Assembly: GCF_054482525.1 (NCBI RefSeq)
Contig: NZ_CM137006.1
DNA length: 64,000 nucleotides
Strand: one strand, 5' to 3'
The notes under the pieces are model-generated. The model was given only the letters and a program-made list of their open reading frames with translations. It was not told the DNA's origin and ran no database searches. Shown piece by piece: positions 12,345 to 62,396 of this stretch. A program made the translations under genes and the position numbers. The stretch's first letter is position 1. The number at the start of each line of letters is the position of its first letter.

Positions 12345-12364
12345 AAACTCATTCAGCGACAGCG

Positions 12365-13513
12365 TTAATCTCGGTGATCTTCAATAACAGCCAGCAACAG
12401 TTTCAGGGTGCCGAACAGCAGGCAGCACACCAGTAACCAGCAGGCGATCAAATAAGGGATATTTGGAAAAGACGATTCCTGCGGCAACTGTGGCGAACTG
12501 ATCACTGACAGCACCTTGAGCTTACGAGCCGCTTCTACACGGGTCTTTTCAATGGAGGTCAGGGTCAGTTTGTACAGCTCGGTGTTGAACTCTACTTTTG
12601 ATTTGATTTCTTCAAAATCCACCGCCATACGGTTTAGCTTGTCACCCTGCGGCGCTGTGATTTTGCTTTTTTCTTCGTCAATTTGTGCCTGCAATGACTG
12701 AATCGCATTACGCGCACTCACAACTTGCGGGGCGTCCTCACGCAGATACGTCAGCAAGTTCCGCAGGTCCGCTTCCATCTGGATCTTCTGGCCCATCAGC
12801 GTATTCACTAACGTGCTCGCCGCCTGTGCCTGTGCCTGTGGATCCAGAACGTTGTTGTTGTCTTGATAAGAGAGCAATTCCGCTTTGCTGGCGTCCAGAC
12901 GCTGGCGTGCCTTTTCCATCTCCGTTTCTGCAAAGGCAAGCTGGTCACGCGCGATGCGATGTGACATCTCATTGATAAAGCGCTCTGACTCTTTCAGCAC
13001 GGTTTGGTTAAACTTAAGCGCAAATTCCGGGCTAAAGCCCTGCGTCTGAATATTCAGTAATCCGGTTTTATCGTCATACGAGACGTTGATACGGTCCTTG
13101 TAGTACTTCAGGAAGCCTTCTGCGGTTTCATCCTTGCTAAGATGATTAAGAAAATCGAGCCCGCTGTGGCTAAACGCTTCACGAAAATTTAGTTGCTTAT
13201 CCAGCGCCGCCAGCATATCCGGCGAGTTGATGTACTCTTTCAGATACAACGCATCTTCTGCGGAACTGGGGTTAGAGGCACCCAGAAGCAGACCAAAATT
13301 CAGGCTGCCGCTGTTTAAATCATCCGAGCGTTTAATGGCGACTTTCGACTCGCTCATATAGCGAGGCTGGCTGAAGATAGCCAGATAGATCAGCAGCACC
13401 GCCATCGGTGCCAGAATGATGATTTTCGCCAGGTGTTTTTGGATATCTGCCAGTGAGATGGCAGACAGACGAGCACGCATCCAGGATACGGCAGACTTCA
13501 CTTTTATCAACAT
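12365..13513 (-). CDS. kpsE: Capsule polysaccharide export inner-membrane protein KpsE
   Basis: 382 aa; N- and C-terminal hydrophobic segments and coiled-coil middle. Confidence 0.9.
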   Translation of the reverse strand: MLIKVKSAVSWMRARLSAISLADIQKHLAKIIILAPMAVLLIYLAIFSQPRYMSESKVAIKRSDDLNSGSLNFGLLLGASNPSSAEDALYLKEYINSPDMLAALDKQLNFREAFSHSGLDFLNHLSKDETAEGFLKYYKDRINVSYDDKTGLLNIQTQGFSPEFALKFNQTVLKESERFINEMSHRIARDQLAFAETEMEKARQRLDASKAELLSYQDNNNVLDPQAQAQAASTLVNTLMGQKIQMEADLRNLLTYLREDAPQVVSARNAIQSLQAQIDEEKSKITAPQGDKLNRMAVDFEEIKSKVEFNTELYKLTLTSIEKTRVEAARKLKVLSVISSPQLPQESSFPNIPYLIACWLLVCCLLFGTLKLLLAVIEDHRD

Positions 13514-13584
13514 GTAACGATTATCAAAGTTTCAGTGGGGCGCAAACTCAATGAGAGACTAACCTCTCGCACCCCGTTGCTTAA

Positions 13585-14568
13585 TTAGTCGAAAATGCGC
13601 ACAAGGCCAGTGACTTTATTTGCCTTGTTGGTCACCAATAACGTTGAGACGCGGTGCTTTTGCATTTTTTCTTCCGCTTCAATGATCATGGTGTCTTCCG
13701 GTAGCGTCAGCGGTTCACGTGTCATCATCTGCGCAGCCGTGGCGGATGTCAGAGAATCCTCTTTTTCCATAAAGCGACGCAGGTCACCGTCGGTGATAAT
13801 GCCCGCTAGCCCACCTTCTGCGTCTTCTACCATCACCATTCCCTGGCATCCGCTGGTGATACGTTGAATCACGGTTTTAAATGACGCATCCAGCTGTACC
13901 GCAGGAACATCATGCTGCATGACATCAGCAACGCGGGTCAGCAGGCGACGACCTAATGAACCGCCCGGGTGATAGCGCGCAAAATCATTCGGCATAAATT
14001 TGCGTTGGTGGATCATGGCAATCGCCAGCGCATCGCCGATCGCCATCGTCAGCGTGGTAGACGTTGTTGGTGCAAGATTATTCGGGCAGGTTTCATTCGC
14101 CATGTGGAGTTCCAGCACGGCATCAGCATTTTTCGCCAGCGTGGAATTTCCATTATTGGTAATGGCGATAATTCGGTTGCCGAAATTTTTCAGTGAAGGA
14201 ACTAGCTTGAGGATTTCATCCGTTTCACCGCTGGCAGAAATAAGGATCAGAAGATCGTAAGGCGTAATCATGCCCAGATCGCCATGGAAAGCTTCTGCAG
14301 GATGAATAAAGAAACTAGGCGTACCCGTAGAGGCCAGCGTCGCTGACATTTTACGACCGACATGCCCTGATTTACCCATTCCCGAAAGAATAACGTGACC
14401 TTTACAGTTCATTATCAAATTAAGGACACGCTGGTACTGCCCGGAATCCAGTTGTTTAGACAAGTTTTGTAATGCTGCGCCTTGTTCTGCCAGAGTCTGG
14501 CGAACAGAGGTAATTAGATATGGATCGATAGTACTGCTCTGGTCATCAGGTAAATGTCTTTCAGACAT
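13585..14568 (-). CDS. kpsF: Arabinose-5-phosphate isomerase KpsF
   Basis: SIS domain plus CBS pair. Start placed at ATG 14568 (MSERHLPDD), preceded by AAAGGAG, giving 327 aa; the track ORF begins 36 nt upstream at 14604. Confidence 0.85.
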   Translation of the reverse strand: MSERHLPDDQSSTIDPYLITSVRQTLAEQGAALQNLSKQLDSGQYQRVLNLIMNCKGHVILSGMGKSGHVGRKMSATLASTGTPSFFIHPAEAFHGDLGMITPYDLLILISASGETDEILKLVPSLKNFGNRIIAITNNGNSTLAKNADAVLELHMANETCPNNLAPTTSTTLTMAIGDALAIAMIHQRKFMPNDFARYHPGGSLGRRLLTRVADVMQHDVPAVQLDASFKTVIQRITSGCQGMVMVEDAEGGLAGIITDGDLRRFMEKEDSLTSATAAQMMTREPLTLPEDTMIIEAEEKMQKHRVSTLLVTNKANKVTGLVRIFD

Positions 14569-14604
14569 ATCAGCTCCTTTGCACGGAAATAATGCCACAG
14601 TCAC

Positions 14605-15296
14605 AGCAAACCCGAACCCACTATAATTTATTTATGCTAAATCAATGGGTTGTAACAAAATTTTTAATGAATATAAAACCATGGTCAGTCCATGCTTATA
14701 TGCAGGACTTATCACCTTCTTATTAAGTCGCAATGTCTCATGGAGGTGCGAAGATGCTGCAATATTACAGGCGAGAAGGGGAACCAAATTTTGCCCACCT
14801 ATTTAACACACCCCTACATTATGAACAAGGAATTTAGGATTTTTATCATTTATTAAAATGTTTCCTACTTGACTATTAAGACCAAAAACAATTTATCAAT
14901 TGATTATTTCCTCGTAAAAAAAGAACGTATGACCATGTTATTAATAAATAAAACACGTAAATAATGGTGATGTTGTTTTATGATTAACTATTTAAGAACG
15001 GTATAATAAACAGGTTGACAATTTCTATGTAAAGAAGAAAATAATAAAATTTTAGCGGTGACTATTGAATGATATGATAGTTGTGGTGTTGATTATTTCT
15101 GGTAATGAATGCGGAATTAAATCTGGCCGGATTGTATTTTTGCTATATCTATTTTTCAGGAGATTATTATTAAATAGAAAAATAACAATGGTGATTATCT
15201 CTGGTTGAGTTGGAGTCACGTATGCCAGCGAGTGCTTTCTTCCGGGCCTTCCTTCACTTCAGAGAAAGAGCCTATGGAAAAGAGGCAATCATCAGG
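14605..15296 (-). promoter_or_regulatory. AT-rich kps region 1 promoter and long 5' leader region (exact sites not mapped)
   Basis: About 690 bp AT-rich non-coding DNA upstream of kpsF; no specific binding site identified by eye. Confidence 0.35.
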
Positions 15297-16722
15297 TAAT
15301 GCCGATCAGTTAAGGATCAGTTGACCGATCCAGTGGCTGTGTAAGAATCCGGAAACGCTCACTTGTTTCCGGATTTTTTTATGCACATTGGACAGGCTCT
15401 TGATCTGGTATCCCGTTACGATTCTCTGCGTAACCCACTGACTTCTCTGGGGGATTACCTCGACCCCGAACTCATCTCTCGTTGCCTTGCCGAATCAGGT
15501 ACTGTAACGCTACGCAAGCGCCGTCTTCCCCTCGAAATGATGGTCTGGTGTATTGTTGGCATGGCGCTTGAGCGTAAAGAACCTCTTCACCAGATTGTGA
15601 ATCGCCTGGACATCATGCTGCCGGGCAATCGCCCCTTCGTTGCCCCCAGTGCCGTTATTCAGGCCCGCCAGCGCCTGGGAAGTGAGGCTGTCCGCCGCGT
15701 GTTCACGAAAACAGCGCAGCTCTGGCATAACGCCACGCCGCATCCGCACTGGTGCGGCCTGACCCTGCTGGCCATCGATGGTGTGTTCTGGCGCACACCG
15801 GATACACTAGAGAACGATGCAGCCTTCCCCCGCCAGACACATGCCGGGAACCCGGCGCTCTACCCGCAGGTCAAAATGGTCTGCCAGATGGAACTGACCA
15901 GCCATCTGCTGACGGCTGCAGCCTTCGGCACGATGAAGAACAGCGAAAATGAGCTTGCTGAGCAACTTATAGAACAAACCGGCGATAACACTCTGACGTT
16001 AATGGATAAAGGTTATTACTCACTGGGACTGTTAAATGCCTGGAGCCTGGCGGGAGAACACCGCCACTGGATGATACCTCTCAGAAAGGGAGCGCAATAT
16101 GAAGAGATCAGAAAACTGGGTAAAGGCGATCATCTGGTGAAGCTGAAAACCAGCCCGCAGGCACGAAAAAAGTGGCCGGGACTGGGAAATGAAGTGACAG
16201 CCCGCCTGCTGACCGTGACGCGCAAAGGAAAAGTCTGCCATCTGCTGACGTCGATGACGGACGCCATGCGCTTCCCCGGAGGAGAAATGGCGGATCTGTA
16301 CAGTCATCGCTGGGAAATCGAACTGGGATACAGGGAGATAAAACAGACGATGCAACTGAGCAGGCTGACGCTGAGAAGTAAAAAACCGGAGCTTGTGGAG
16401 CAAGAGCTGTGGGGTGTCTTACTGGCTTATAATCTGGTGAGATATCAGATGATTAAAATGGCGGAACATCTGAAAGGTTACTGGCCGAATCAACTGAGTT
16501 TCTCAGAATCATGCGGAATGGTGATGAGAATGCTGATGACATTGCAGGGCGCTTCACCGGGACGTATACCGGAGCTGATGCGCGATCTTGCAAGTATGGG
16601 ACAACTTGTGAAATTACCGACAAGAAGGGAAAGGGCCTTCCCGAGAGTGGTAAAGGAGAGGCCCTGGAAATACCCCACAGCCCCGAAAAAGAGCCAGTCA
16701 GTTGCTTAACTGACTGGCATTA
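15297..16722 (+). mobile_element. IS4 insertion sequence, 1426 bp, intact
   Basis: Terminal inverted repeats TAATGCCGATCAGTTAAGG (15297-) and CCTTAACTGACTGGCATTA (-16722); 11-bp direct repeat CAATCATCAGG at 15286-15296 and 16723-16733. Confidence 0.9.
15363..16709 (+). CDS. IS4 transposase
   Basis: 448-aa ORF inside IS4; true start may be the internal MHIGQALDL Met. Confidence 0.9.
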
Positions 16723-16814
16723 CAATCATCAGGCTCTTTTTGAGTCATATGCGCCGATAATCAACTGTCTTGAACGTAACAATTATGGAGCAACATGATG
16801 CTACGATTCATTTC

Positions 16815-17000
16815 ACTCTTCGTTCTTTCTGAGCATTGCGTTCAGGATGGTCAGCAATTTACGCATACAGTCAACCAGCGCCACTTTTTTGGTTTTTCCG
16901 GCTGCTGACAGATGCATGTAAAACGCCTTTATCACCGGATTAAACCAGGTTACCACAAGCGCTGCCATGTGCAGGGCTGCTCTTGCCTCCGTACGCGCAC
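16815..17000 (-). pseudogene. IS110-family transposase, C-terminal fragment
   Basis: Minus-strand translation ends ...VALVDCMRKLLTILNAMLRKNEE*, the conserved IS110-family C-terminus; no N-terminal part. Similar DNA at 56393-56460. Confidence 0.5.
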
Positions 17001-17162
17001 TGGCGTCGTTCGGCCAGCAGATATGTGTGGGATAACAGGGATGTTATGTGAACTGAACTGTGTTTTGTTAACGGGGGATGTTTATTGATGATTCGGTAGT
17101 GTTTAAGACCTGATGGCGTTATGCTCCCAAGTTTATTTTATATAAAGATCCAAAAGCAAAAA

Positions 17163-17180
17163 CCCGCCTTGTGGGCGGGT
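17163..17180. terminator. GC-rich hairpin (CCCGCC-TTGT-GGGCGGG) flanked by A/T runs
   Basis: Perfect short stem-loop with A-run before and T-run after; next to the tRNA-like repeat. Confidence 0.35.
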
Positions 17181-17193
17181 TCTTTAGAATTAG

Positions 17194-17215
17194 TGGTGCC
17201 GGACTCGGAATCGAA
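17194..17215 (-). repeat. tRNA-Phe 3'-end-like 22-nt repeat (island att-site remnant)
   Basis: TGGTGCCGGACTCGGAATCGAA is the reverse complement of a tRNA-Phe acceptor/T-arm 3' end with one base missing; no full tRNA present. Confidence 0.5.
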
Positions 17216-17325
17216 AATTTCTTTTATCATATTGATATTAATACAATTTGTTTGGTTTGATTAAAAATGTACCCTCAATTATACCCGCAGTCCCTTTTGA
17301 TATCGAAAGGGAATCACACTCGGGA

Positions 17326-18168
17326 TCAGGCTGAGAGCACAGAAGGAAAGTACCTGGCTATTATATCGTTAATTCTGTCAATCAGTTCCAGCCTTTTGAA
17401 AGTGATGTGTGCAGATCCCTTCTTAAAGTATTTAATGATGAACATCTCGTCTTCATAGCGCTCTTTACCCTGAACGGACTGGATGTGACCATCCAGACGA
17501 ATAGTGATGTTTTCCCGGTTGTCGGGGATCGGTTTGCCGCTGAACAGATGTAGCATTCTTTCCAGGTCGACGAGTCGGTCAGTCTGTTGCCCGGTGATAA
17601 GATGAAACCCCCACCGGTCCCACCTCACCAGGTTGTTGACGATAATTTTACTGCCAAATTTGCAGGGGCAATTGGTTTTGTAATTCCAGCTCAGTCCCCT
17701 GAAGACGTTGATCACCCCTCGCTCAAACACCTCATCCTTATTCTGGTGTAGTTGTTCAAATGTGCTCAGAATGTTCGCTTCACTGATTTCCGGAAAATTA
17801 TCGTGCTCCAGTGACCGGTACCATGTATCACGGGCCTGTGCATCCATTAAGGAAAGCATCCCTGAACGTTGCATCAGGTCACGCCAGATTTCGCGATCGA
17901 GATTGCGTGTGATAGCTTTCATTGCGGTTTCCGGTTTCTCCATCAGCCAGCAGCCGCAGCGAAAATCCTGTTTCATGGCCCAGTCCGGGGCGGCTTTACC
18001 GCCAATACTTTCTGTCATTGCTGAGATTTCAGCCAGTTGCCGGATAAGTGTGTCGATTTGCAGCAGTGTACTTTTTCGTACAGCCAGAATGTGGCGGATA
18101 CTGGTTGAGCAGATAACGTCCGTATGCCCGGTGACCACTTCCGGATGGGAGATTGTGATGTTTGACAT
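17326..18168 (-). CDS. Conserved island protein, probably DUF4942 family (CP4-44-like module, copy 1)
   Basis: 280 aa; paralog of 45243-46109; occupies the module-terminal position after the YeeW-like genes. Confidence 0.6.
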   Translation of the reverse strand: MSNITISHPEVVTGHTDVICSTSIRHILAVRKSTLLQIDTLIRQLAEISAMTESIGGKAAPDWAMKQDFRCGCWLMEKPETAMKAITRNLDREIWRDLMQRSGMLSLMDAQARDTWYRSLEHDNFPEISEANILSTFEQLHQNKDEVFERGVINVFRGLSWNYKTNCPCKFGSKIIVNNLVRWDRWGFHLITGQQTDRLVDLERMLHLFSGKPIPDNRENITIRLDGHIQSVQGKERYEDEMFIIKYFKKGSAHITFKRLELIDRINDIIARYFPSVLSA

Positions 18169-18252
18169 TATCGGTTTCCCTTTTGGTTTATAAACGAAAA
18201 CGCCAGCCGTATTCAGGCTGGCGTCAGGGTAATGAAGCGTGGTGAGTGATAT

Positions 18253-18450
18253 TCACCGGTTCTGGTGCAGAAGCTGCAGATGACGCAGGGTACGGACATC
18301 CTCTCTGGCCTGTTCGATACAGGGCAACAGTGCTGCCGAATCCGTTCTATCCTCATCGTTGTCAAAGATAATTCCCGATTCGCAGTCGATATTGTCCTGC
18401 AGCCACGCAATGAGGATATCCAGCGCTGTTTCCGTGGTTAATGATTTCAT
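18253..18450 (-). CDS. Small conserved protein downstream of yeeW-like gene (copy 1)
   Basis: MKSLTTETALDILIAWLQDNIDCESGIIFDNDEDR...; start placed at ATG 18450 behind AGGAACAAC; paralog at 46194-46391. Confidence 0.5.
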   Translation of the reverse strand: MKSLTTETALDILIAWLQDNIDCESGIIFDNDEDRTDSAALLPCIEQAREDVRTLRHLQLLHQNR

Positions 18451-18461
18451 GTTGTTCCTGG

Positions 18462-18950
18462 TTATCAGTCGAAAGTGGGCAGGTCCGGCAGACATTCAGC
18501 GCTGGCATCCAGATGAATGAGACTGACGCCATAACGTTGGATGAGTGTGACAAACAGACGACGGAACGTTTTTGACAGCCCCAGGCGTTTAAGCCGCAGA
18601 ACCGGATATGATCACGCATCGGTACGTAACAGATATCCGCTACCTGTGAAATGAATCCATTCTGATTCGCCGAAGTCACTGGTCTGGTGTGACAGTGAGT
18701 ACAACCAGGCGTTGTCCGTTTCCGTGATATGTGCGGTACTGCAGCGTATGCCGGCAAGGGTTGCAAATGGCGGTGGTGTGCAGGTTGACTGTTGGTCGGA
18801 TTCCTCTGCCACACGGAGTGAATAATCGTTTTCAGCGACGTTATTAATCAGTTCAGTGAGATTAACACCATCGACGTCAACGACAATTCGCCCCATGTTC
18901 AGTGCCTGCACATTAATGCTGTCGGCTTCCAGCATCAGGGAAAGTTTCAT
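18462..18950 (-). pseudogene. YeeW-like protein, truncated by a TGA nonsense codon at codon 113 (copy 1)
   Basis: Copy 2 (46403-46894) reads through TGG (W) where copy 1 has TGA; downstream frame in copy 1 still encodes SYPVLRLKRLG... Confidence 0.55.
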
Positions 18951-19321
18951 CGTTTCTCCGGATGCTTACCCAGGGTAATGTTATTTACCGTTCTGTAATT
19001 GTCGCGGGTCATCAGGCCGGTCGCCCTGCGAGCCCGGAGGATATCGATGCTGTTTATTAACTGAGAGCGGGTACAGGCACTGAATTCCGGCTGGTCGGTA
19101 CGCACCAGTGCGTATTTTTCAACAAGAAAGTTCACTGCATCGCACAGTGAAATGCCAGCTTCAATATGCTGCTCAATCACACGTTCATCGGCGAACGGTG
19201 TGTCATTCAGCGTAAGGCCGTAATGCTGGTCCAGCAACCGGGACAGCAGTGTCTGCCAGATGGTGACGGGAGACGGGCAGCGCGATGCCTCCCGTACGTG
19301 TGTGTCGGGTAATGTTTTCAT
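18947..19321 (-). CDS. cbtA: CbtA/YeeV-family toxin
   Basis: 124 aa, [56 protein letters not shown]... Confidence 0.85.
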
Positions 19322-19410
19322 ACTGAAGGTTTTCCTGATATGCAGAGATGAAAAATGGAAAAGTGGCGTGGTGAAAGCACCAGGCCGGAGCAGAAGGTTA
19401 TTCCGGTGGT

Positions 19411-19791
19411 TTACTTTTTCGTTTCGGATGTTGGATAAACAGCCAGATAAACGTAACCACAGCTGCCGAGGGTGTCGGCTTCGCAGGTCAGCCCTTTCGC
19501 ATACAGTGTGACGGTATGCTGATGGCGGGGATTCAGTTCACCGCCGGTGAGCATGAGTTCCAGTTGTTTCATCAGCAGCGGAAAGGCCTGGTCCAGGTGG
19601 TACGCATCCGCGTCGCTGAACAGGCCTCTGATACCGGCGCGGTCGGCAAGGTAATGCAACCGGTTACCCTCCTGCACCAGACGTGCCCCGAAACAGGGCG
19701 TCACGGTGCAGGGTAGCCCCCCACCAGGGGCGGTTGTTGTTGTCGGGATGCGTTGTCCCGGGGAGTGTGTCTGACACGATAAAATCCTCAC
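19411..19791 (-). CDS. cbeA: CbeA/YeeU-family antitoxin, N-terminal frameshift relative to copy 2
   Basis: Residues after ~25 match YeeU ([31 protein letters not shown]...); copy 1 has a 6-C run at 19727-19732 where copy 2 has 5. Confidence 0.7.
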
Positions 19792-19856
19792 AGAAAATCG
19801 GTTAAGAATGGTCCGGTGGTGGCGATAATTCTGCTCATCTGAATGCCCTTCCAGAC

Positions 19857-20078
19857 TCAGTTCAGGGTGACGCTCATCAGCCGGACATACGGGCCAAAAC
19901 TGTCCTTACGGCGTTCAGCAAACACAGCCAGCACACCGGGAATATCCTGCACTTCACGACCGGTATACGTCTCAGCACTGCCGTGCCAGCGGTACTTACC
20001 GGTACAGAACGGAAAAAGACGGGATGCAGGATGCTGTTGGTGAATACGCATGGCTTCACCACGGGTGATAATTTTCAT
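19857..20078 (-). CDS. yeeT: DUF987/YeeT-like protein
   Basis: 73 aa, MKIITRGEAMRIHQQHPASRLFPFCTGKYRWHG...; conserved position between radC-like and cbeA. Confidence 0.7.
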   Translation of the reverse strand: MKIITRGEAMRIHQQHPASRLFPFCTGKYRWHGSAETYTGREVQDIPGVLAVFAERRKDSFGPYVRLMSVTLN

Positions 20079-53822: not shown

Positions 53823-54494
53823 TCTCTTCTGGTGATTTTCACTATCACATGGAAATCGAATATGCAAGGAAGTTAACAAAAAAACATTGCATCCGGACTT
53901 GTGTTCAAAAAGCAATCACTTCAAGGCTTGATCACTCTGTGAGATGCTGAAGAACTATTCTCTAACTATTCACGATCTATTCTTGATCTATTCATAATAA
54001 ATTAAAACATGCTATCAACTACTGCTCATATCCTCCTTGGGTGTGTCGTTGTACTGTTCGACTGTTCTTGTGGTCAGATTAACAATCTGAAGAGTAAAAG
54101 CGACAGTAATCTGTCTGTTATAGTGGCGATAAAAACACTGAATGCGCATCCTGTATGTGAAATCCTGTCATGTGGAGCAGTAAGCAATGACAGGCATGCA
54201 TGTTATATGTGAAGGGGGCCGGGAGACGACATAATCAGTATGGCTGTCATTCTGGTTGTAAAACGCGATCACTTTCCGGGGGTAAAAGATGATATGGAAG
54301 CTGACAAACGGTTTGCTTCGGATTGTCTTTTCTGGGGCCTGAAATACGGGGACAGAAAAATAATTCCAGAGTAAATCTGCTCCGTTTTCAGAACAAAAAT
54401 CCCCATGCTGGCCGTGAAAAACTGAAACGAACATTCAGTCTGCATGAGTGTCTGAAGATGTTGAGAATGTCGGTATGATACTATATACACATGT

Positions 54495-54700
54495 TTTTAT
54501 TAAGTGTTATATACATATCTTTTTAAATAGATAATTCTACACATATTTTACTAAGTGTTTTTACTAAGCATTTCAGTAAGTGTTATACACGTATTTTCTA
54601 CTAAGTGTTTTACCAGACATACACATGTTTTCATAAACAATTCTACAAGTGTTTTCATTAAGTATTGTTATACACATTGCTTTGTCTGATACACATCCAG
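54495..54700. repeat. Iteron-like array of TAAGTGTT / ATACAC motifs
   Basis: At least five (C)TAAGTGTT copies at about 22-25-bp spacing, interleaved with ATACAC; inside a 1.6-kb ORF-poor region between hypothetical B and the Gp2-like gene at 55552. Confidence 0.5.
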
Positions 54701-55506
54701 TTTAGTAAACCTGTCAGTCCTGTTTTTACGTTAACTAAAATCAGCTTAATGCTACTACAAAACAATCTTTCCTGTTTAAGCAATCAATATGATATTCTAT
54801 TTTTCTGATGTTACATTTAACCTTTTATGAGTTTTCGTGTTTTTAGTCGTTAACCTGAGACAAGTGTTTTTATGTAAAACGCAAATCCGGCTGAGATAAC
54901 CTGGCGTGATTTACTGTGTGCTTACGATGATTTTGTTAAATGGTTTTATGGATGATTTTGTAGCGATAAGATTGATGAGATGATTAACTGGCCCTGGTGT
55001 TTTTTCTCAGTGCAAGGTGATTATCTTCATCATAAGGCTCTTTTCAGAAAAAGCGTGATGATTGGTTCTGGTGTTTTGATTCAGATGAGATTTACGTTAT
55101 CGATGGTTAATCGTTTTTATGGTGTGTTGAAAAGTAACGTTTTCAGGATAAGAAAATCGATTCTGATGTTGGTGGTTTTTGTTCTCGGGGCAGGGTTATC
55201 TGTAAACAGGTTTTAAACGCGCTATTCGGCTCTGTGATTGAGTTTTGTGGTTAAGCTGTAGGTTTTGGTATTGTTGTTGATTCACAGCAGCAGAAAGCGT
55301 TCTGATTGCGTTTTTGGTGTTTTGTTTGCACGTTCTGTTGATCCGTTTCCCTTCGGGCTTTGTAGTTTTTAAAAACCATTTATGCCGTTGTTGTGTGTTT
55401 TACCCTGCGTGTAGGTTTATCTTTTCTTCGTGGGGGATTCATTCTGTTTTAATCAGGAGCCATTGGCGTTGCTCAATGGCGGGATGCCGTAAAGTTTTAC
55501 CGCAGT

Positions 55507-55544
55507 GATTAATGATGTGAAGTCAATCCAAATCAACGGAGATC
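55507..55544 (+). promoter_or_regulatory. Conserved ~35-40-bp element GATTAATGATGTGAA...CAACGGAGATC (copy 1)
   Basis: Near-identical core to 61295-61327; ends 8 bp before the Gp2-like gene start at 55552. Confidence 0.4.
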
Positions 55545-55551
55545 TCTCATC

Positions 55552-56283
55552 ATGAATCAACCAATACACAATGCTTACTGGTTATCCCGTTTTGACAGCC
55601 TTCTCGACAGTGCCCTAGTGCAGCACCGTGCCGTCTCGTTAATTCGGGTGGATTTACGTTTTCCTGAGTATATGCCTGCCACTATTATGGATACCGATTT
55701 AGATTCAGCAGTGATTTCTCGTTTTTTCGAATCCCTGAAAGCAAAAATTCAGGCTTACCAGCGGAAAAAACGACGTGCCAACAAGCGTGTGCGTGCAACC
55801 ACTCTGCGTTATTTCTGGTGTCGGGAGTTTGGCAAGGAAAAAGGCAGGAAACATTATCACGTGATATTACTGCTCAACAAAGATACCTGGTGCTCGCCAG
55901 GGGATTTCACCGTTCCTTCTTCGCTGGCGACGCTGATCAAGCTGGCATGGTGCAGTGCTCTGCATCTCGAGCCCTGGCAGGGTAATGGACTGGTTCATTT
56001 TTCCAGGCGGACGCCTTTCCGTAAACCGACATCATCTGATGCTCGCCCTTCTTCCGATGATACGCCTTTGTCGGGTGGATGTTCTGAAACCAGGAAGGCT
56101 TCAGACAAAAAGCCGGGTGAAGCCGCTGTTCTCTGGGTCAAGCGTGGTGATGTGGAAGCGATGCAGAAAGCCATGGAGAGAGCCTGTTATCTCGTGAAGT
56201 ATGAGACGAAGCAGCATGACGGTTCTGGGCAACGTAATTATGGTTGCAGTCGTGGGCCGGGGCGTCTACTGGATGGCAGGTGA
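55552..56283 (+). CDS. Gp2-like protein (YfjJ/YagK family)
   Basis: 243 aa; VSLIRVDLRFP...RKHYHVILLLNKD...CYLVKYETKQ family pattern. Confidence 0.75.
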   Translation: MNQPIHNAYWLSRFDSLLDSALVQHRAVSLIRVDLRFPEYMPATIMDTDLDSAVISRFFESLKAKIQAYQRKKRRANKRVRATTLRYFWCREFGKEKGRKHYHVILLLNKDTWCSPGDFTVPSSLATLIKLAWCSALHLEPWQGNGLVHFSRRTPFRKPTSSDARPSSDDTPLSGGCSETRKASDKKPGEAAVLWVKRGDVEAMQKAMERACYLVKYETKQHDGSGQRNYGCSRGPGRLLDGR

Positions 56284-56392
56284 GCCCTGTAAAACGGCAT
56301 CCGGTGCCTGAGCATACGTCACGTAATTAACTGTCTTGACCAACAAAATTATGGAGTAACCTGATGGCAGGATTCATTACATTTCTTTGTTC

Positions 56393-59116: not shown

Positions 59117-60668
59117 GAGGTTGGTGATAAGGCGTTTTGCATATCCTGCACCTATGCAAATGTTCACCAATTATGGGGGGGGAATGAGAATTTCTCTGAA
59201 AAAACCGCTACGGTAGCAACAGTAGCAGCACATGCACCACATCTGTGATTTAATTTTGTTTTCATAATGACCTGCTGTCAGAGCTGGTTGAATACAGGAG
59301 TGTGCGCACTGGTGGAAGCATGGCTTTCGTTTTTTATTGATCGAAAGTGAATCGAAAGATTATTTTTAACATAGATTAAAGCTAATCATTAACCATATTG
59401 TGTGAGTTTTCATATATAACTTCGTTTGATTTTCGTCGTGATGAGTGTAGGTGTATATGATAATGTCGGTCTCTGCCTGAATAACGAATGGTTATCACTG
59501 TTACTGAAAAGAGATGCTGTTCAAGTTTGCATTTCAATAGGAGAGTGAAGAAAAATGATTTGATATTTTTTCTGTAAGATAATGGTTTGTCATGTTCGTA
59601 TTCAGAACGGATGATTTCTTATTTTTACTCATCAAACATGGATAATTTTAATTTAGGTTTATTACTATAATTAGTATCTACCCCTTTATTTATCATCCAT
59701 CTCTGCCCTTCATTTTCCCTCTCTGTCTTTACACATTCCATTACTCTTATTCTCATCCAGTTATATTCACTCCCTTCCTTGTCTAATCTTCATTGTCACC
59801 ATTATCATGGTATCCACCTTCTCCATTCCTCAATCATAACTACTGTAACTCATATGATACTCAGATAAGTTATTCTCTACTACGCTATTGCTGATATCCA
59901 TCTGTTCCTGTTTTCAGTAAAATAATAATTTATTTTAATTTTATCCATCATGAGCTGTATTTGCTTAACAATGATTGTTTATCTGATATGTTTTAACCAT
60001 TCTGGTAAATATCAATACTTCTGTCATCACTGATTAACTGAATGCTTACTCTTTAATAAGGTATCCATTATTCTGTAACGATTAGCCGAGCAGGGTAAAT
60101 AACAGAATTAATAGAGTGAATTTCTGATTGTGTTTGTTCGTTCCTGATTATCTTGTATTTTAAATAAAATGAAAATTATCCATCCATGGTATGTTTCATT
60201 CTGGTACCGTGTACCCGTTAACGTTCATATCTTGAACATGAGTTGTTTTTAACAGATAAAATGAGTGCGTGTAAGTTTATTGGGTTACAGGTATCGTGTT
60301 GGCCTTGTACACGGTTTTTTAGAACCATTGAGAGCAAGTTTGTAATTTATGATGGTGATTAGTCGTAATATGTTTCTTGAACTTCTGATCGTGGGTTTTT
60401 ATCGCATATTTTGCAGTATTTCGTGATGTTTATTGATTCTGTATTTTATTCACTCCTCGTTTATCTCATCTCTTTAGCTAATACCATCAGATAATCCATT
60501 TATTTCTGCACAACGCTACGTGTCGTTAATAACCGACGTATCCATTCTGTTACAGCATGCCTGATAAATACCGTCTGTAAGTTATTACCGTTTTAGATCT
60601 GATTATGAGCGAAAGCATTAATTCGTTTACAGCACTTAAAACGTCATTAACTTTCAGGAGTCATCAGC

Positions 60669-61235
60669 ATGCCTAAATCTTACACACCAAACTGGTTTTT
60701 TACCGCTTTACTTGACAATCACATCAATCAGTTGGTCGCACGCTATTCCCGTCTGCGGGCCTTACGCATGGATTTCTTCTACAGGAAAGATACGCCTGAT
60801 TTCTTACAACCTGATCATCGCTGGCTTGAATTGCAGTTGCGTATGCTGCTGGAGCAGGTGGAACAATTTGAAAATATCGTTGGTTTCTTCTGGGTGATTG
60901 AATGGACGGCTGATCATGGTTTTCATGCGCATGCGGTTTTCTGGCTCGATCGTCAGAGGGTTAAAAAAATATATCCCTTTGCGGAGCGGATTACGGAATG
61001 CTGGCAGTCTATTACGCATAACAGCGGTTCGGCACACCGCTGTACATATCAGCCGCATTATACATACAACATCAACATTCCTGTGCGCCACAACGATCCT
61101 GAAAGCATCGATAATATTCGCGGTGCCCTGCATTATCTGGCGAAAGAAGAGCAAAAAGACGGGCTGTGTGCCTACGGCTGCAGTGAAGTTCCTGAGCGTC
61201 CTGCTGCAGGGCGTCCTCGTAAGCCTCACTTCTGA
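60669..61235 (+). CDS. Gp2-like protein (YfjJ/YagK family)
   Basis: 188 aa; LRMDFFYRKD...HGFHAHAVFWLDR...LHYLAKEEQKDG. Confidence 0.75.
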   Translation: MPKSYTPNWFFTALLDNHINQLVARYSRLRALRMDFFYRKDTPDFLQPDHRWLELQLRMLLEQVEQFENIVGFFWVIEWTADHGFHAHAVFWLDRQRVKKIYPFAERITECWQSITHNSGSAHRCTYQPHYTYNINIPVRHNDPESIDNIRGALHYLAKEEQKDGLCAYGCSEVPERPAAGRPRKPHF

Positions 61236-61294
61236 AGCTTAAGGCCTGAGCCTCCGCTCCTGGAAACACTCCGTCGGTAAAAATCTACCGCCCT

Positions 61295-61327
61295 GATTAA
61301 TGATGTGAACTGAAGTCAACGGAGATC
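61295..61327 (+). promoter_or_regulatory. Conserved element GATTAATGATGTGAA...CAACGGAGATC (copy 2)
   Basis: Matches 55507-55544 with a 3-bp insertion and a 7-bp deletion; lies between two Gp2-like genes. Confidence 0.4.
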
Positions 61328-61518
61328 ATTCACCTTAAACCCACCTCAGGAATTTTACACCTGTCTGGTCTCCTGACTGTCCTGGCATACGACATCTGCC
61401 ATCCCCGGTTCCACGGTTATCACATCAACAATCTCAGTACACGACGCCTTCAGTTTCACCATACGCTCGTCTTTCGCTGGCGGGGATGCGTCGTGCGTTT
61501 CCATATGGAGCATATCTT

Positions 61519-62091
61519 ATGAATGGTATCCCTCATTTCGACTATAGCCTGGCGCCCTTCTGGCCGTCTTATCAGAACAAAATCATCGGTGTTCTCAACC
61601 GTGCGCTGCGTGAACAGTCCTGCTCCCGGGTACGGCGGATCCTGCTTCGTCTGCCGTGGGAACATGACAACGCCTTCAGTGACAGAAAAATCTGGTTCGG
61701 TATGGATTTTATCGAAACCGTCAGTGCGCTGATGAATGCAACACCCGGACGTGACCTCTGCTGGCTCCTGACCCGTCATCCTGAAAAACCGGAATACCAC
61801 GTGGTGTTATGCGTCAGACAGGAGTATTTCGATGGCCCTGAACTGGACCGGCTGATTCTGGATGCCTGGAGCAACGTACTGGGCTTCGCGTCACCGGGTG
61901 AAGCGGCACCGTACCAGAAGCAGATAACACGGGATGTGGTGCTGGACAGTCGTTCACCGGACTGCGAAGACATCCTCAAAGAGTTGATATGGGCGTTCAG
62001 TGATTTCGCCCGCGATCGTCGTGGTGTGCGCGATCCGGAAGCCCGTTACCTCGCCGGTAATCCCTGGTATCCCGTAGCAGGCCAGCTCTGA
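61519..62091 (+). CDS. Gp2-like protein, divergent (putative YfjJ/YagK family)
   Basis: Start ATG 61519 behind GGAG; RVRRILLRLPW...EYHVVLCVRQEY resembles the family core. Confidence 0.5.
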   Translation: MNGIPHFDYSLAPFWPSYQNKIIGVLNRALREQSCSRVRRILLRLPWEHDNAFSDRKIWFGMDFIETVSALMNATPGRDLCWLLTRHPEKPEYHVVLCVRQEYFDGPELDRLILDAWSNVLGFASPGEAAPYQKQITRDVVLDSRSPDCEDILKELIWAFSDFARDRRGVRDPEARYLAGNPWYPVAGQL

Positions 62092-62159: not shown

Positions 62160-62396
62160 ATGTTGACCTCAATGACAGGCCACGACAGCGTGTTGCTGCG
62201 TGCTGACGATCCCCTGATCGACATGAACTACATCACCAGTTTCACCGGTATGACCGACAAATGGTTTTACAAGCTGATCAGTGAAGGCCATTTCCCGAAA
62301 CCCATCAAGCTGGGCCGCAGCAGCCGCTGGTACAAAAGTGAAGTGGAGCAGTGGATGCAGCAGCGAATTGAGGAATCACGAGGAGCAGCAGCATGA
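62160..62396 (+). CDS. alpA: AlpA-family transcriptional regulator
   Basis: ITSFTGMTDKWFYKLISEGHFPKPIKLGRSSRWYKSEVEQW; true start may be the internal MNYITSF Met. Confidence 0.75.
   Translation: MLTSMTGHDSVLLRADDPLIDMNYITSFTGMTDKWFYKLISEGHFPKPIKLGRSSRWYKSEVEQWMQQRIEESRGAAA

What the first reader, a model, noticed from the sequence alone, without database searches (positions are those of the whole stretch)
55507..55544. Conserved ~35-40-bp element shared by two Gp2-like loci
ACCGC..TGATTAATGATGTGAA...GTCAA...CAACGGAGATC occurs at 55507-55544 (8 bp before a Gp2-like start) and again at 61295-61327 (between two Gp2-like genes), differing by two small indels. Conservation in otherwise unrelated flanking sequence suggests a functional site: promoter/operator, nick site, or recombination site. 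A GATC lies at the 3' end.
Basis: seen in the sequence. Interest (0 to 1): 0.45.

Follow-up and report, generated by a model that had tools for sequence, protein, structure and literature searches.

The report
Conserved leader element before Gp2-like genes
A real, strongly conserved ~75-base non-coding element sits in front of two neighbouring nickase-like (Gp2/YfjJ-type) genes in an E. coli genomic island; it looks like a sequence-specific docking site for island proteins, but its function is untested.

Summary
Copy A (55489-55562) and copy B (61277-61345) align over about 74 nt with a single 5-nt indel. Nothing around them is alignable.

- **Location.** The window is an E. coli CP4-type island. 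A abuts the start of a 243-aa HUH-fold Gp2/YfjJ-type gene. B lies about 190 nt upstream of a 190-aa degenerate paralogue that heads an AlpA-containing unit.
- **Distribution.** Both copies occur in 1904 of 5426 complete E. coli genomes, always A then B in one orientation. They are about 935 bp apart, or 4-10 kb apart with variable cargo between them.
- **Conservation.** The core AAT[G/a]ATGTGAA...GTCAACGGAG is nearly invariant in 23 unique A and 48 unique B variants. Flanks, the B spacer and synonymous sites vary by 13-40%.
- **Excluded or unsupported.** It is not coding. It has no shared RNA fold or covariation and no Rfam match. It has no plus-strand sigma-70 promoter. No A/B recombinant junction exists in any genome. 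The GATC is not conserved.
- **Anatomy.** A dyad CsGTAA-N4-TTACCG is followed by 6-7 phased pentamers (A-N-T-S-A). A has exactly one more pentamer than B.

Best reading (inferred, about 0.35): a binding array for the Gp2-like HUH proteins, acting as an autoregulatory operator and possibly as an origin. Rivals are another regulator's operator or mRNA leader, a minus-strand promoter, and an att-like site.

The parts
55489..55562 (+). Element copy A: the full stretch homologous to copy B
   Evidence: Local alignment. It is the top direct repeat of the 12-kb region (D1/D2). The nhmmer profile hit spans 55487-55562.
55487..55502 (.). Dyad of copy A, CCGTAA-AGTT-TTACCG. It is a perfect GCGGTAAA-GT-TTTACCGC in some alleles.
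   Evidence: Sequence and variants. The inner GTAA/TTAC is invariant, while N4 and the outer bases vary.
55511..55541 (+). Invariant core of A, AATGATGTGAAGTCAATCCAAATCAACGGAG. It consists of phased pentamers AATGA TGTGA AGTCA ATCCA AATCA ACGGA and ends in the Shine-Dalgarno GGAG (55538-55541).
   Evidence: Invariant in 13 genome loci. It has one C/T variant among 23 unique variants. Pentamer phase.
55506..55559 (+). Hairpin specific to copy A. The arms TGATTAATGATG (55506-55517) and CATCATGAATCA (55548-55559) enclose the SD and pair the start codon.
   Evidence: RNA fold -16.5 kcal/mol, z -1.97. DNA fold z -2.1. There is no covariation.
55552..56283 (+). 243-aa Gp2/YagK-YfjJ family gene (Gp2-243), an HUH-fold protein
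61253..61335 (+). Element copy B: the conserved block, including a B-specific left part (GCTCCTGGAAACACTCCGT)
   Evidence: Identity is 77-93% against the most divergent allele, flanked by about 50% on both sides. The alignment of 69 unique metagenome upstream regions shows the same block.
61275..61290 (.). Dyad of copy B, CGGTAA-AAAT-CTACCG. Most alleles have CGGTAA-AAAC/AACC-TTACCG.
61297..61324 (+). Invariant core of B, TTAATGATGTGAAC[Y]GAAGTCAACGGAG. It consists of phased pentamers AATGA TGTGA ACTGA AGTCA ACGGA (GATCA), one unit fewer than A. No start codon follows.
   Evidence: One variable column of 28, against 37% in the spacer (binomial P 3.6e-5). All 69 unique loci selected through the downstream coding sequence carry it. 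It is the only place in 64 kb with 5 of 6 phased T[G/C]A.
61282..61309 (-). Sigma-70-like match on the minus strand, TTCACA-16-TAGATT. It overlaps the dyad. The equivalent in A is TTCACA-17-AAAACT.
   Evidence: It is a consensus match only, and it is the only promoter-like site shared by A and B.
61336..61500 (+). Hypervariable non-coding spacer between B and the ribosome-binding site of the 190-aa gene
   Evidence: It is about 55% identical to other alleles, although 4-fold sites of the gene differ by only 13-28%. 1-nt indels break every reading frame.
61519..62091 (+). 190-aa degenerate Gp2-like gene (hyp190). It has EYHV in place of HUH and no aligned catalytic Tyr. It is the first gene of the unit hyp190 - AlpA-like - YagK/YfjJ.
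   Evidence: It occupies the position of the Gp2-like gene that precedes AlpA in Providencia and Brenneria islands.
62160..62396 (+). AlpA/excisionase-family HTH gene downstream of B
   Evidence: PGAP annotation. PF05930 in the homologous locus. Weak TIGR01764 match.
60669..61235 (+). 188-aa Gp2-like gene. In this window it is the gene upstream of B.
   Evidence: Pfam PF11726. In compact islands Gp2-243 and its terminator-like hairpin take this place.

Best explanation
**What it is.** The element is a cis-acting, sequence-specific recognition module. It was duplicated together with the 5' ends of two paralogous Gp2-like (HUH-fold) genes, and both copies have been kept by purifying selection.

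**Anatomy.** Each copy has a 16-bp dyad (CsGTAA-N4-TTACCG). Five bases later comes a run of 6-7 phased pentamers (consensus A-N-T-S-A: AATGA TGTGA [AGTCA] A.T/C.A ... ACGGA). The run ends at GGAG.

**Most likely mechanism (inferred, not shown).** The pentamer array and dyad are the docking site for the island's own Gp2-like proteins. These are the apparently catalytic Gp2-243 and the catalytically degenerate 190-aa paralogue. By analogy, parvoviral NS1 and AAV Rep bind tandem short repeats both at their origins and at their own promoter.
- Binding at A would set expression of Gp2-243.
- Binding at B would set expression of the hyp190-AlpA-YagK unit, so the two units would be controlled together.
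- The same sites could also serve as nick or origin sites.
- In copy A the module doubles as the ribosome-binding region. Its AAUGAUG segment can pair with the CAUCAUG start region and occlude the start codon.

**Shown:** existence, extent, distribution, selective constraint, non-coding nature, absence of a shared RNA fold, and the HUH fold of the neighbouring protein.

**Inferred:** which molecule binds the element, and what follows from binding.
For: **Context.**
- Position and orientation are fixed. Of 158 copies examined, every A abuts a Gp2-243 start and every B precedes hyp190.
- In all 38 loci holding both copies, A precedes B on the same strand.

**Constraint on sequence rather than structure.**
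- The B core has 1 variable column of 28, against 37% in the adjacent spacer (P 3.6e-5).
- 4-fold synonymous sites of the downstream gene differ by 13-31%.
- All 69 unique loci chosen through the coding sequence carry the core.
- The A core is invariant from AATGATG to the ATG in loci whose flanks are 80-97% identical.
- RNAalifold on A plus B gives -1.46 kcal/mol and no covarying pair.

**Repeat architecture.**
- B is the only place in 64 kb with 5 of 6 phased T[G/C]A at a 5-nt period; none occurred in 100 shuffles.
- A and B differ by exactly one 5-nt unit. Only these two length classes exist among the 158 copies.

**Neighbouring protein.**
- Gp2-243 has invariant H101, H103, Y213 and K216.
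- That these relatives bind tandem tetranucleotide repeats at origins and at the p5 promoter is established knowledge, not tested here.
- hyp190 appears to lack the first His and the Tyr, which fits a binding-only paralogue.

**Dyad.** The half-sites are conserved and N4 is variable, as in protein operators.
Against: - No binding or nicking data exist.
- I chose the pentamer motif after seeing the sequence, so its statistics are post hoc.
- The invariant block ends exactly at the Shine-Dalgarno GGAG in both copies. In A it continues through the start codon into the coding sequence. This would fit an mRNA-level role at least as well.
- A 5-bp unit places successive sites on opposite faces of B-DNA, which is unusual for duplex-binding arrays.
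- Other YagK/YfjJ genes have no comparable element upstream: K-12 yfjJ, the other Gp2-like genes in this window, and the Providencia and Brenneria homologues. Those control regions instead carry ACACAT(G)TTTT repeats, which could be the true binding sites of the family.
- The core shows no convincing similarity to known HUH nick sites.
Confidence: 0.35

Rival explanations
1. The element is a shared mRNA leader or operator used by a different trans-acting factor. Candidates are the AlpA/excisionase-like HTH protein, the island's ProQ/FinO-family protein, CsrA, or an sRNA that pairs across the Shine-Dalgarno region. The element then controls translation or stability of both transcripts. In A, the start-codon hairpin contributes.
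For: - The invariant run is contiguous, about 28-31 nt, and ends exactly at GGAG in both copies.
- In A the constraint continues through the ATG and about 40 nt of coding sequence.
- A folds into a hairpin that sequesters the SD and AUG (-16.5 kcal/mol, z -1.97).
- In one allele the single A.G mismatch in that stem becomes a C-G pair.
- The two common polymorphisms in the B core are transitions, which would be wobble-compatible.
- A ProQ/FinO gene and an AlpA-like gene lie just downstream.
- In compact islands B follows a terminator-like hairpin and is the only conserved block before hyp190.
Against: - There is no shared RNA structure and no covariation.
- The fold of B is not better than shuffles (z -0.67).
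- B has no start codon within reach, and the spacer is not coding.
- No complementary partner of 11 nt or more exists anywhere in the 64-kb window.
- There is no Rfam match.
- No transcription start site is known, so it is unproven that the element is transcribed at all.
Confidence: 0.27
2. A and B are origin and termination (nick) sites for the HUH nickase. Initiation at A and termination at B would copy out or excise the intervening segment (Gp2-243 plus cargo) as a circle. This would be a rolling-circle cargo module inside the island.
For: - The neighbouring protein has an HUH fold with catalytic residues conserved.
- The two copies are direct repeats that always bracket Gp2-243.
- All variable cargo enters between the Gp2-243 3' UTR and B. 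The A-to-B distance is about 935 bp or 4.1-10.2 kb.
- The layout, a dyad followed by an invariant single-strand-type block, resembles inverted-repeat-plus-nic origins (established knowledge).
- As single-stranded DNA, both A and the common B allele fold into two hairpins (z -2.1 and -2.3).
Against: - No A-left/B-right or B-left/A-right junction occurs in 5426 genomes or their plasmids.
- Copies on plasmids are rare and appear to be island fragments. There are none in phages.
- Cargo boundaries do not coincide with the element: they lie about 100-130 bp after the Gp2-243 stop and at the left edge of B.
- The bases just 5' of GATTAATG, where a phiX/pC194-like CTTG^AT nick would fall, are the variable ones.
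- The hairpin arms show uncompensated changes.
Confidence: 0.15
3. The conserved feature is a minus-strand promoter with an operator. The -35 is TTCACA (from the invariant TGTGAA). The -10 is TA[A/G][A/G][G/T]T and lies inside the dyad. It drives a divergent or antisense RNA.
For: - It is the only sigma-70-like match shared by A and B, at 8-9 of 12 positions.
- In all 48 B variants the T1, A2 and T6 positions of the -10 are invariant, while positions 3-5 vary.
- A dyad overlapping a -10 is a classical repressor layout.
Against: - In A the corresponding hexamer is TAAAAC, with no T at -7. Only a shifted AAAACT at 17 nt fits.
- The model does not explain the invariance of the spacer or of CCGTTGAC upstream of the -35.
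- The transcript would have a different body in each context (antisense to Gp2-188, to the Gp2-243 3' UTR, or into the gene-free region). No conserved terminator or ORF follows.
- A 9-of-12 match is expected 0.3 times per 500 bp by chance.
Confidence: 0.1
4. The two copies are att-like core repeats left by site-specific insertion, or a neutral relic of a duplicated gene start with no present function.
For: - They are direct repeats with an identical 16-bp core flanking a variable segment.
- Integrase and excisionase-family genes are present in the island.
- B looks like an A-type leader whose ATG has become CTG or TTA.
- Mosaic alleles show recombination break-points around the block.
Against: - No empty-site or hybrid junction occurs in 5426 genomes.
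- A and B always co-occur, in the same 1904 genomes.
- B-specific features are fixed, and its core is far more conserved than neutral sites. This excludes a decaying relic.
- The two forms are never homogenised; there are no intermediate lengths.
Confidence: 0.07

Closest known systems
Rep-binding elements of parvoviral NS1 and AAV Rep: tandem (ACCA)n or (GAGC)n repeats next to a nick site, also present in the rep promoter p5
   Same: A short-period tandem repeat array lies next to a small dyad, immediately upstream of a gene for an HUH-fold protein. That protein's closest solved structural relatives are these NS1/Rep nickase domains. The dual operator and origin logic would explain one copy in front of each paralogue.
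   Different: The unit here is 5 nt rather than 4. There is no sequence similarity. The element is chromosomal in a bacterial island. No hairpin telomere exists. Binding and nicking are untested.
Double-strand origins of rolling-circle replicons and the Ff phage gpII origin: a nick site plus an adjacent gpII-binding dyad or repeats, located upstream of gene II
   Same: The adjacent proteins are annotated as inovirus Gp2 family (PF11726, PF23343). The element combines a dyad with a contiguous invariant block of about 30 nt, in the same orientation as the gene and upstream of it.
   Different: There is no significant similarity to the f1, phiX174 or pC194 nick regions. The positions that would match CTTG^AT vary. 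No replicon or circle has been detected.
Duplicated operator or leader modules in mobile elements, for example lambda OL/OR or nutL/nutR, where one short conserved site sits in each of two transcription units
   Same: Two copies of a short conserved block lie at the heads of two adjacent units of a mobile element, embedded in unrelated sequence. This implies co-regulation by one factor.
   Different: There is no boxA/boxB similarity, no shared RNA hairpin with covariation and no recognisable plus-strand promoter. The regulator is unknown.
Start-codon or SD-sequestering 5' UTR hairpins (translational operators)
   Same: In copy A the 5' arm TGATTAATGATG pairs with CATCATGAATCA, which contains the ATG. 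The SD lies in the enclosed loop.
   Different: This applies to A only. B has no start codon, yet is equally constrained. There is no compensatory change.

Membership tests
HUH-enzyme origin or Rep-binding element | An HUH endonuclease (HUH motif plus catalytic Tyr) is encoded next to the site | tested here: met
HUH-enzyme origin or Rep-binding element | Tandem short iterons and/or an inverted repeat adjacent to a conserved nick region | tested here: inconclusive
   There are 6-7 phased pentamers, and a one-unit difference between A and B. A dyad lies 5 nt upstream. However, I defined the motif post hoc, and the larger hairpin arms lack compensation.
HUH-enzyme origin or Rep-binding element | Sequence-specific binding, cleavage and covalent attachment by the cognate protein | not testable with these tools
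   This needs EMSA or footprinting and oligonucleotide cleavage assays.
HUH-enzyme origin or Rep-binding element | Products of initiation and termination: circles, or deletions between tandem origins | tested here: not met
   No hybrid A/B or B/A junction covers at least 80% of the chimeric queries in 5426 genomes plus plasmids. Transient circles would not be visible in assemblies.
Sigma-70 promoter for the downstream genes | -35 and -10 hexamers with 16-18 nt spacing on the plus strand, upstream of the SD, shared by both copies | tested here: not met
   The tool scan found none on the plus strand. A relaxed scan gives at most 7 of 12, at non-homologous positions.
Protein operator (dimeric HTH type) | Dyad symmetry with conserved half-sites and a free spacer | tested here: met
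   The dyad is CsGTAA-N4-TTACCG. The inner GTAA and TTAC are invariant in 71 unique variants. N4 occurs as AGTT, CGTT, AAAC, AACC, AAAT and AAAA. The binding protein is unknown.
Structured cis-regulatory RNA (Rfam-type leader, riboswitch, nut/put-like) | A match to a curated family, or a conserved secondary structure with covariation | tested here: not met
   There is no Rfam hit at E<=1 over the element. The RNAalifold consensus is -1.46 kcal/mol, with 0 of 11 pairs covarying.
att site of a tyrosine recombinase or other recombination site | An identical core flanking an insert, with empty-site or hybrid junctions in the population | tested here: not met
   A core repeat is present, but no single-copy hybrid occurs in 5426 genomes. 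A and B are found in the same 1904 genomes.
Dam-methylation (GATC) switch | A conserved GATC within the site | tested here: not met
   Natural variants carry GGTC, GAGC or GTTC in B, and GAAC or GTTC in A.
Protein-coding or leader-peptide sequence | An open frame kept across variants, with indels in multiples of three | tested here: not met
   1-nt indels and stops occur in all frames of the B spacer. The minus-strand ORF over B changes mostly non-synonymously and has no SD. A and B are in different frames.

The most novel reading that the evidence does not exclude
A and B are the initiation and termination sites of a chromosomal rolling-circle module. The HUH nickase Gp2-243 nicks at A and reseals at B. 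This copies out the intervening DNA, which is precisely the slot where these islands hold their variable cargo (restriction systems, YfjI, acyltransferase, H-NS and others). On this reading, CP4-type islands contain a previously unrecognised cassette-exchange system driven by YagK/YfjJ-family proteins.
Probability: 0.12. Interest if true: 0.8.

Novelty: new member of a known kind. Interest (0 to 1): 0.45.

Why it matters
**Unknown family.** YagK/YfjJ ('inovirus Gp2 family') proteins are core genes of CP4-type islands in Enterobacteriaceae and of tmRNA-associated islands in Pseudomonas (PMC12595487). They have no known function or DNA target.

**What this element offers.** It is found in about 35% of complete E. 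coli genomes, next to pap fimbriae and defence cargo. It is the first candidate cis site for this family. It is short, sharply bounded, present in two naturally different versions (6 versus 7 pentamers) and easy to test.

**If the proteins bind or nick it.** This would assign a function to a y-gene family. It could also explain how these islands regulate or exchange the variable segment between the two copies.

**If not.** The element is still a well-defined regulatory leader for the AlpA-containing unit, which is presumed to control island excision.

Tried and rejected
- **Third diverged copy upstream of other genes.** I looked upstream of the 188-aa Gp2-like gene (60570-60625), the 182-aa YagK/YfjJ gene, the hyp190 ribosome-binding site and K-12 yfjJ. 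A visual resemblance was present, but local alignments were no better than shuffles, and the nhmmer profile finds nothing.
- **Family of related junction elements.** I tested whether similar elements precede other cargo genes downstream of Gp2-243 (restriction endonuclease, acyltransferase, RelB contexts). They are not significantly similar to A or B (z < 0 to 2.9).
- **Spacer as an inverted or duplicated segment.** The B spacer does not match the other allele in either orientation. It is not a decayed copy of the Gp2-243 or hyp190 coding sequence.
- **Coding readings.** An N-terminal extension of hyp190, a leader peptide starting at ATC/ATT/CTG, the ATG-ATG-TGA mini-ORF, and a minus-strand 26-aa ORF are all broken or non-conserved in some alleles.
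- **Cross-species footprinting.**
  - The exact core pattern occurs in only one Enterobacteriaceae MAG among 100,044 species genomes, and in one viral contig.
  - Providencia and Brenneria homologues (35-43% identity) have unrelated upstream DNA.
- **Known elements.**
  - Rfam: no match.
  - Plasmids and phages: only rare island fragments.
  - The Pseudomonas AlpA-binding element GGGACG belongs to a different, Q-like AlpA.
  - The UPEC sRNA PapR lies outside the pap island.
  - Matches recalled from memory to sigma-54, sigma-28, sigma-E, CRP, Fur, IHF, LexA and TyrR consensus sequences, checked by eye on the sequence, were poor and were not pursued.
- **Trans-encoded complementary RNA.** Only chance 10-mers occur in the window.
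- **Literature.** A search on YagK/YfjJ gave no functional study.

Full report
**What the window is.** The region is 100% identical to many E. coli chromosomes. PGAP annotation of an identical genome shows two tandem CP4-44/CP4-57-type islands.

In the second island, the backbone operon runs leftwards. It comprises a GTPase, DUF932, an antirestriction protein, RadC and CbeA/CbtA. After a gene-free AT-rich stretch of about 1.6 kb, a rightward module starts:
- a 243-aa 'inovirus Gp2 family' protein (55552-56283; PF11726 and PF23343);
- an IS110 fragment;
- a YfjI/DUF3987 gene;
- a 188-aa Gp2-like protein (60669-61235);
- a 190-aa hypothetical protein (61519-62091);
- an AlpA/excisionase-like HTH protein (62160-62396);
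- a 182-aa YagK/YfjJ protein;
- a ProQ/FinO pseudogene on the opposite strand.

**Check of the observation.** Both copies exist.
- The exact 16-mer TGATTAATGATGTGAA occurs only at 55506 and 61294.
- The best local alignment runs from 55489-55562 to 61277-61345, over 74 columns with a single 5-nt gap.
- It scores 54. Shuffles of the partner give 19.8 +/- 2.6. Shuffled A against the whole window on both strands gives 26.4 +/- 2.6, maximum 39.
- Nothing outside this stretch aligns.
- The homology includes the Shine-Dalgarno GGAG and the first 11 nt of the A gene. In B, the position of the ATG is TTA (CTG in most other alleles) and no gene follows for about 190 nt.
- A profile HMM of all variants finds only these two copies. 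It finds none in the window's first island, in K-12 CP4-57, or elsewhere in the loci. K-12 yfjJ lacks the element.

**Distribution and context.** Each copy is found in 1904 of 5426 complete E. coli genomes, with a median of two places per genome.
- Outside Escherichia, the exact core pattern occurs in one Enterobacteriaceae MAG among 100,044 species genomes.
- It occurs once in IMG/VR, on a handful of E. coli plasmids and in no phage.
- Among 38 loci that hold both copies, A always precedes B on the same strand. The distance is about 935 bp in 21 loci, giving the compact form A - Gp2-243 - terminator-like hairpin - B - hyp190 - AlpA. It is 4.1-10.2 kb in 17 loci.
- The variable cargo includes a restriction endonuclease, a type I RM system, YfjI, an acyltransferase, H-NS and pseudouridine genes. 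It always lies between the conserved 3' UTR of Gp2-243 and the left edge of B.
- In Providencia and Brenneria, the homologous islands have a single Gp2-like gene directly followed by AlpA, diverging from the same backbone.
- So hyp190 is the positional equivalent of that gene, and Gp2-243 is an extra upstream paralogue. This fits an origin of A and B by duplication of a gene together with its leader.

**Selective constraint.**
- Copy A:
  - In 13 genome loci whose flanks are 80-97% identical, the segment AATGATGTGAAGTCAATCCAAATCAACGGAGATCTCTCATCATGAATCAA is invariant.
  - Identity profiles peak at 97-100% over 55507-55580.
- Copy B, sampling:
  - I sampled loci without reference to the element, through a 22-nt pattern in the hyp190 coding sequence. 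This gave 108 metagenome contigs.
  - All 69 unique upstream regions carry the core: 61 exactly and 8 with 1-3 substitutions.
- Copy B, variability:
  - In ten diverse alleles, the 28-nt core has one variable column. The spacer has 37% variable columns and the 5' part of the block has 38% (binomial P 3.6e-5).
  - 4-fold degenerate sites of hyp190 differ by 13-31% between the same alleles.
- Copy B, extent of the conserved block:
  - Against the most divergent allele, B is an 80-bp island of 77-93% identity between flanks at about 50%.
  - The block is retained with two different upstream contexts (Gp2-188 or the Gp2-243 3' UTR) and with two very different spacers. Recombinant combinations of these exist.
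- The window's own spacer is more diverged (about 55% identity) than neutral sites predict. Part of the contrast in this window therefore comes from mosaic replacement. The constraint argument rests on the other alleles and on the metagenome sample.
- Among 23 unique A and 48 unique B variants, only two linker lengths occur: 15 nt in A and 10 nt in B.
- The GATC is not invariant.

**What it is not.**
- Not coding. The B spacer has 1-nt indels and stops in every frame. The minus-strand ORF over B has no SD and evolves non-synonymously. A and B would be read in different frames.
- Not a known RNA. There is no Rfam match.
- Not a shared RNA structure. RNAalifold on 17 A and B variants gives -1.46 kcal/mol and no covarying pair.
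  - A alone can form a hairpin in which TGATTAATGATG pairs with CATCATGAATCA, burying the AUG (-16.5 kcal/mol, z -1.97).
  - B does not fold better than shuffles, and arm changes are not compensated.
- Not a plus-strand sigma-70 promoter.
  - The only promoter-like feature common to both copies is on the minus strand: TTCACA-16-TAGATT in B and TTCACA-17-AAAACT in A.
- Not a visible recombination site. Chimeric A-left/B-right and B-left/A-right queries find no junction in 5426 genomes.
- No complementary partner of 11 nt or more exists in the window.

**Anatomy.** Both copies have the same layout.
- First comes a 16-bp dyad, CsGTAA-N4-TTACCG. The inner GTAA and TTAC are invariant, while N4 and the outer bases are free.
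- Five nucleotides later comes GATTAATGATGTGAA, then the linker, then GTCAACGGAG.
- Read in 5-nt register, the core is a run of pentamers.
  - B reads AATGA TGTGA ACTGA AGTCA ACGGA GATCA.
  - A reads AATGA TGTGA AGTCA ATCCA AATCA ACGGA GATCT.
- B is the only place in the 64 kb with five of six phased T[G/C]A; none occurred in 100 shuffles.
- The A/B length difference is exactly one unit. I recognised this periodicity after inspecting the sequence, so its statistics are indicative only.

**The neighbouring protein.**
- In 20 homologues down to 34% identity, H101, H103 (HUH), Y213 and K216 are invariant.
- The AlphaFold model has pTM 0.76 and is confident outside an inserted loop at residues 153-190.
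- No sequence relative has a solved structure.
- In a low-identity alignment, hyp190 has EYH in place of HUH and lacks the aligned Tyr. This suggests a binding-only derivative.

**Interpretation.** The data show a sequence-constrained, non-coding, orientation-fixed module at the 5' side of two paralogous HUH-fold genes.

*Explanation I rank first (0.35).* The element is the recognition site of these proteins, with the pentamer array acting as iterons and the dyad beside it.
- It would work primarily as a shared operator that couples expression of Gp2-243 with that of the hyp190-AlpA unit.
- It could possibly also work as a nick or origin site.
- This rests on analogy with NS1/Rep, which bind tandem short repeats at origins and at their own promoter. 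That is established knowledge and was not tested here.

*Close rival (0.27).* The element is an mRNA leader or operator recognised by another factor.
- This is favoured by the fact that the invariant block ends exactly at GGAG.
- It is also favoured by the A-specific start-codon hairpin.

*Rolling-circle ori/ter reading (0.15).* This is the most novel reading. It fits the placement of the cargo, but it has no supporting junctions.

*Less likely readings.* These are a minus-strand promoter (0.10) and an att-like or relic origin (0.07).

*Literature.* It offers no functional study of YagK/YfjJ. Gp2-like plus AlpA modules are noted as core genes of Pseudomonas islands (PMC12595487).

**Verdict.** The feature is real and selectively maintained, and it has not been described before. 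Its kind (a duplicated cis-regulatory or recognition site) is familiar, but its partner and mechanism are unknown. It is of moderate interest as an entry point to the YagK/YfjJ family.

Noticed in passing
window 54485-54873 (within the gene-free 53916-55551); also L132 5750-5830 and L133 5290-5370: There is a family of repeats, ATACACATGTTTTTATTAA / ACAAGTGTTTTCAT, in the AT-rich divergent control region (families D3, D7-D9, D20). Similar ACACAT(G)TTTT / ATGTGTTTT repeats occupy the equivalent region in the Providencia and Brenneria islands. They are candidates for a cross-genus operator or iteron set.
   Followed up: partly
L006 1385-1420, L014 about 9355-9390 and the other compact loci (downstream of the Gp2-243 stop); the homologous DNA is absent from the window after about 56320: A terminator-like hairpin follows Gp2-243. 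It exists in two forms that are reverse complements of each other: GGGCGTTGGCTGACGCCC and GGGCGTCAGCCAACGCCC. This is a flip/flop loop inversion between strains.
   Followed up: no
window 55466-55503 and 56286-56318: An imperfect inverted repeat brackets the Gp2-243 gene. Upstream it reads ...GCTCAATGGCGGGATGCCGTAAAGTTTTACCGC. The reverse complement of the downstream copy reads ...GCTCAGGCACCGGATGCCGTTTTACAGGG (pair I14). Its significance is modest and it was not tested across alleles.
   Followed up: partly
window 61336-61500: The spacer between B and hyp190 is only about 55% identical to other alleles, although synonymous sites of the adjacent gene differ by 13-28%. It is a hypervariable or replaced segment. 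Recombinants join it to different left flanks.
   Followed up: partly
window 1-20000 versus 42800-64000: The window holds two tandem CP4-like islands. The first carries Ag43, hha, an inovirus-type Gp2 gene at 15822-16421 and YagK/YfjJ fragments. It has no copy of the element.
   Followed up: yes
L005 1480-1500 (E. coli PI24): In one genome an IS1 is inserted exactly 5' of AATGATGTGAA. It removes the dyad and the TGATT but leaves the core and the gene intact.
   Followed up: no
L003 11398-13675 (CFT073) and L017: In uropathogenic strains, the unit B - hyp190 - AlpA-like lies directly upstream of papI and the pap fimbrial operon.
   Followed up: no
window 55314-55508 and 55505-55555: A 64-codon ORF ends at the TGA of TGATTAATG. 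A 16-codon GTG-initiated frame through copy A ends in ATGA, overlapping the Gp2-243 start. Neither has an SD, and B has no equivalent.
   Followed up: partly
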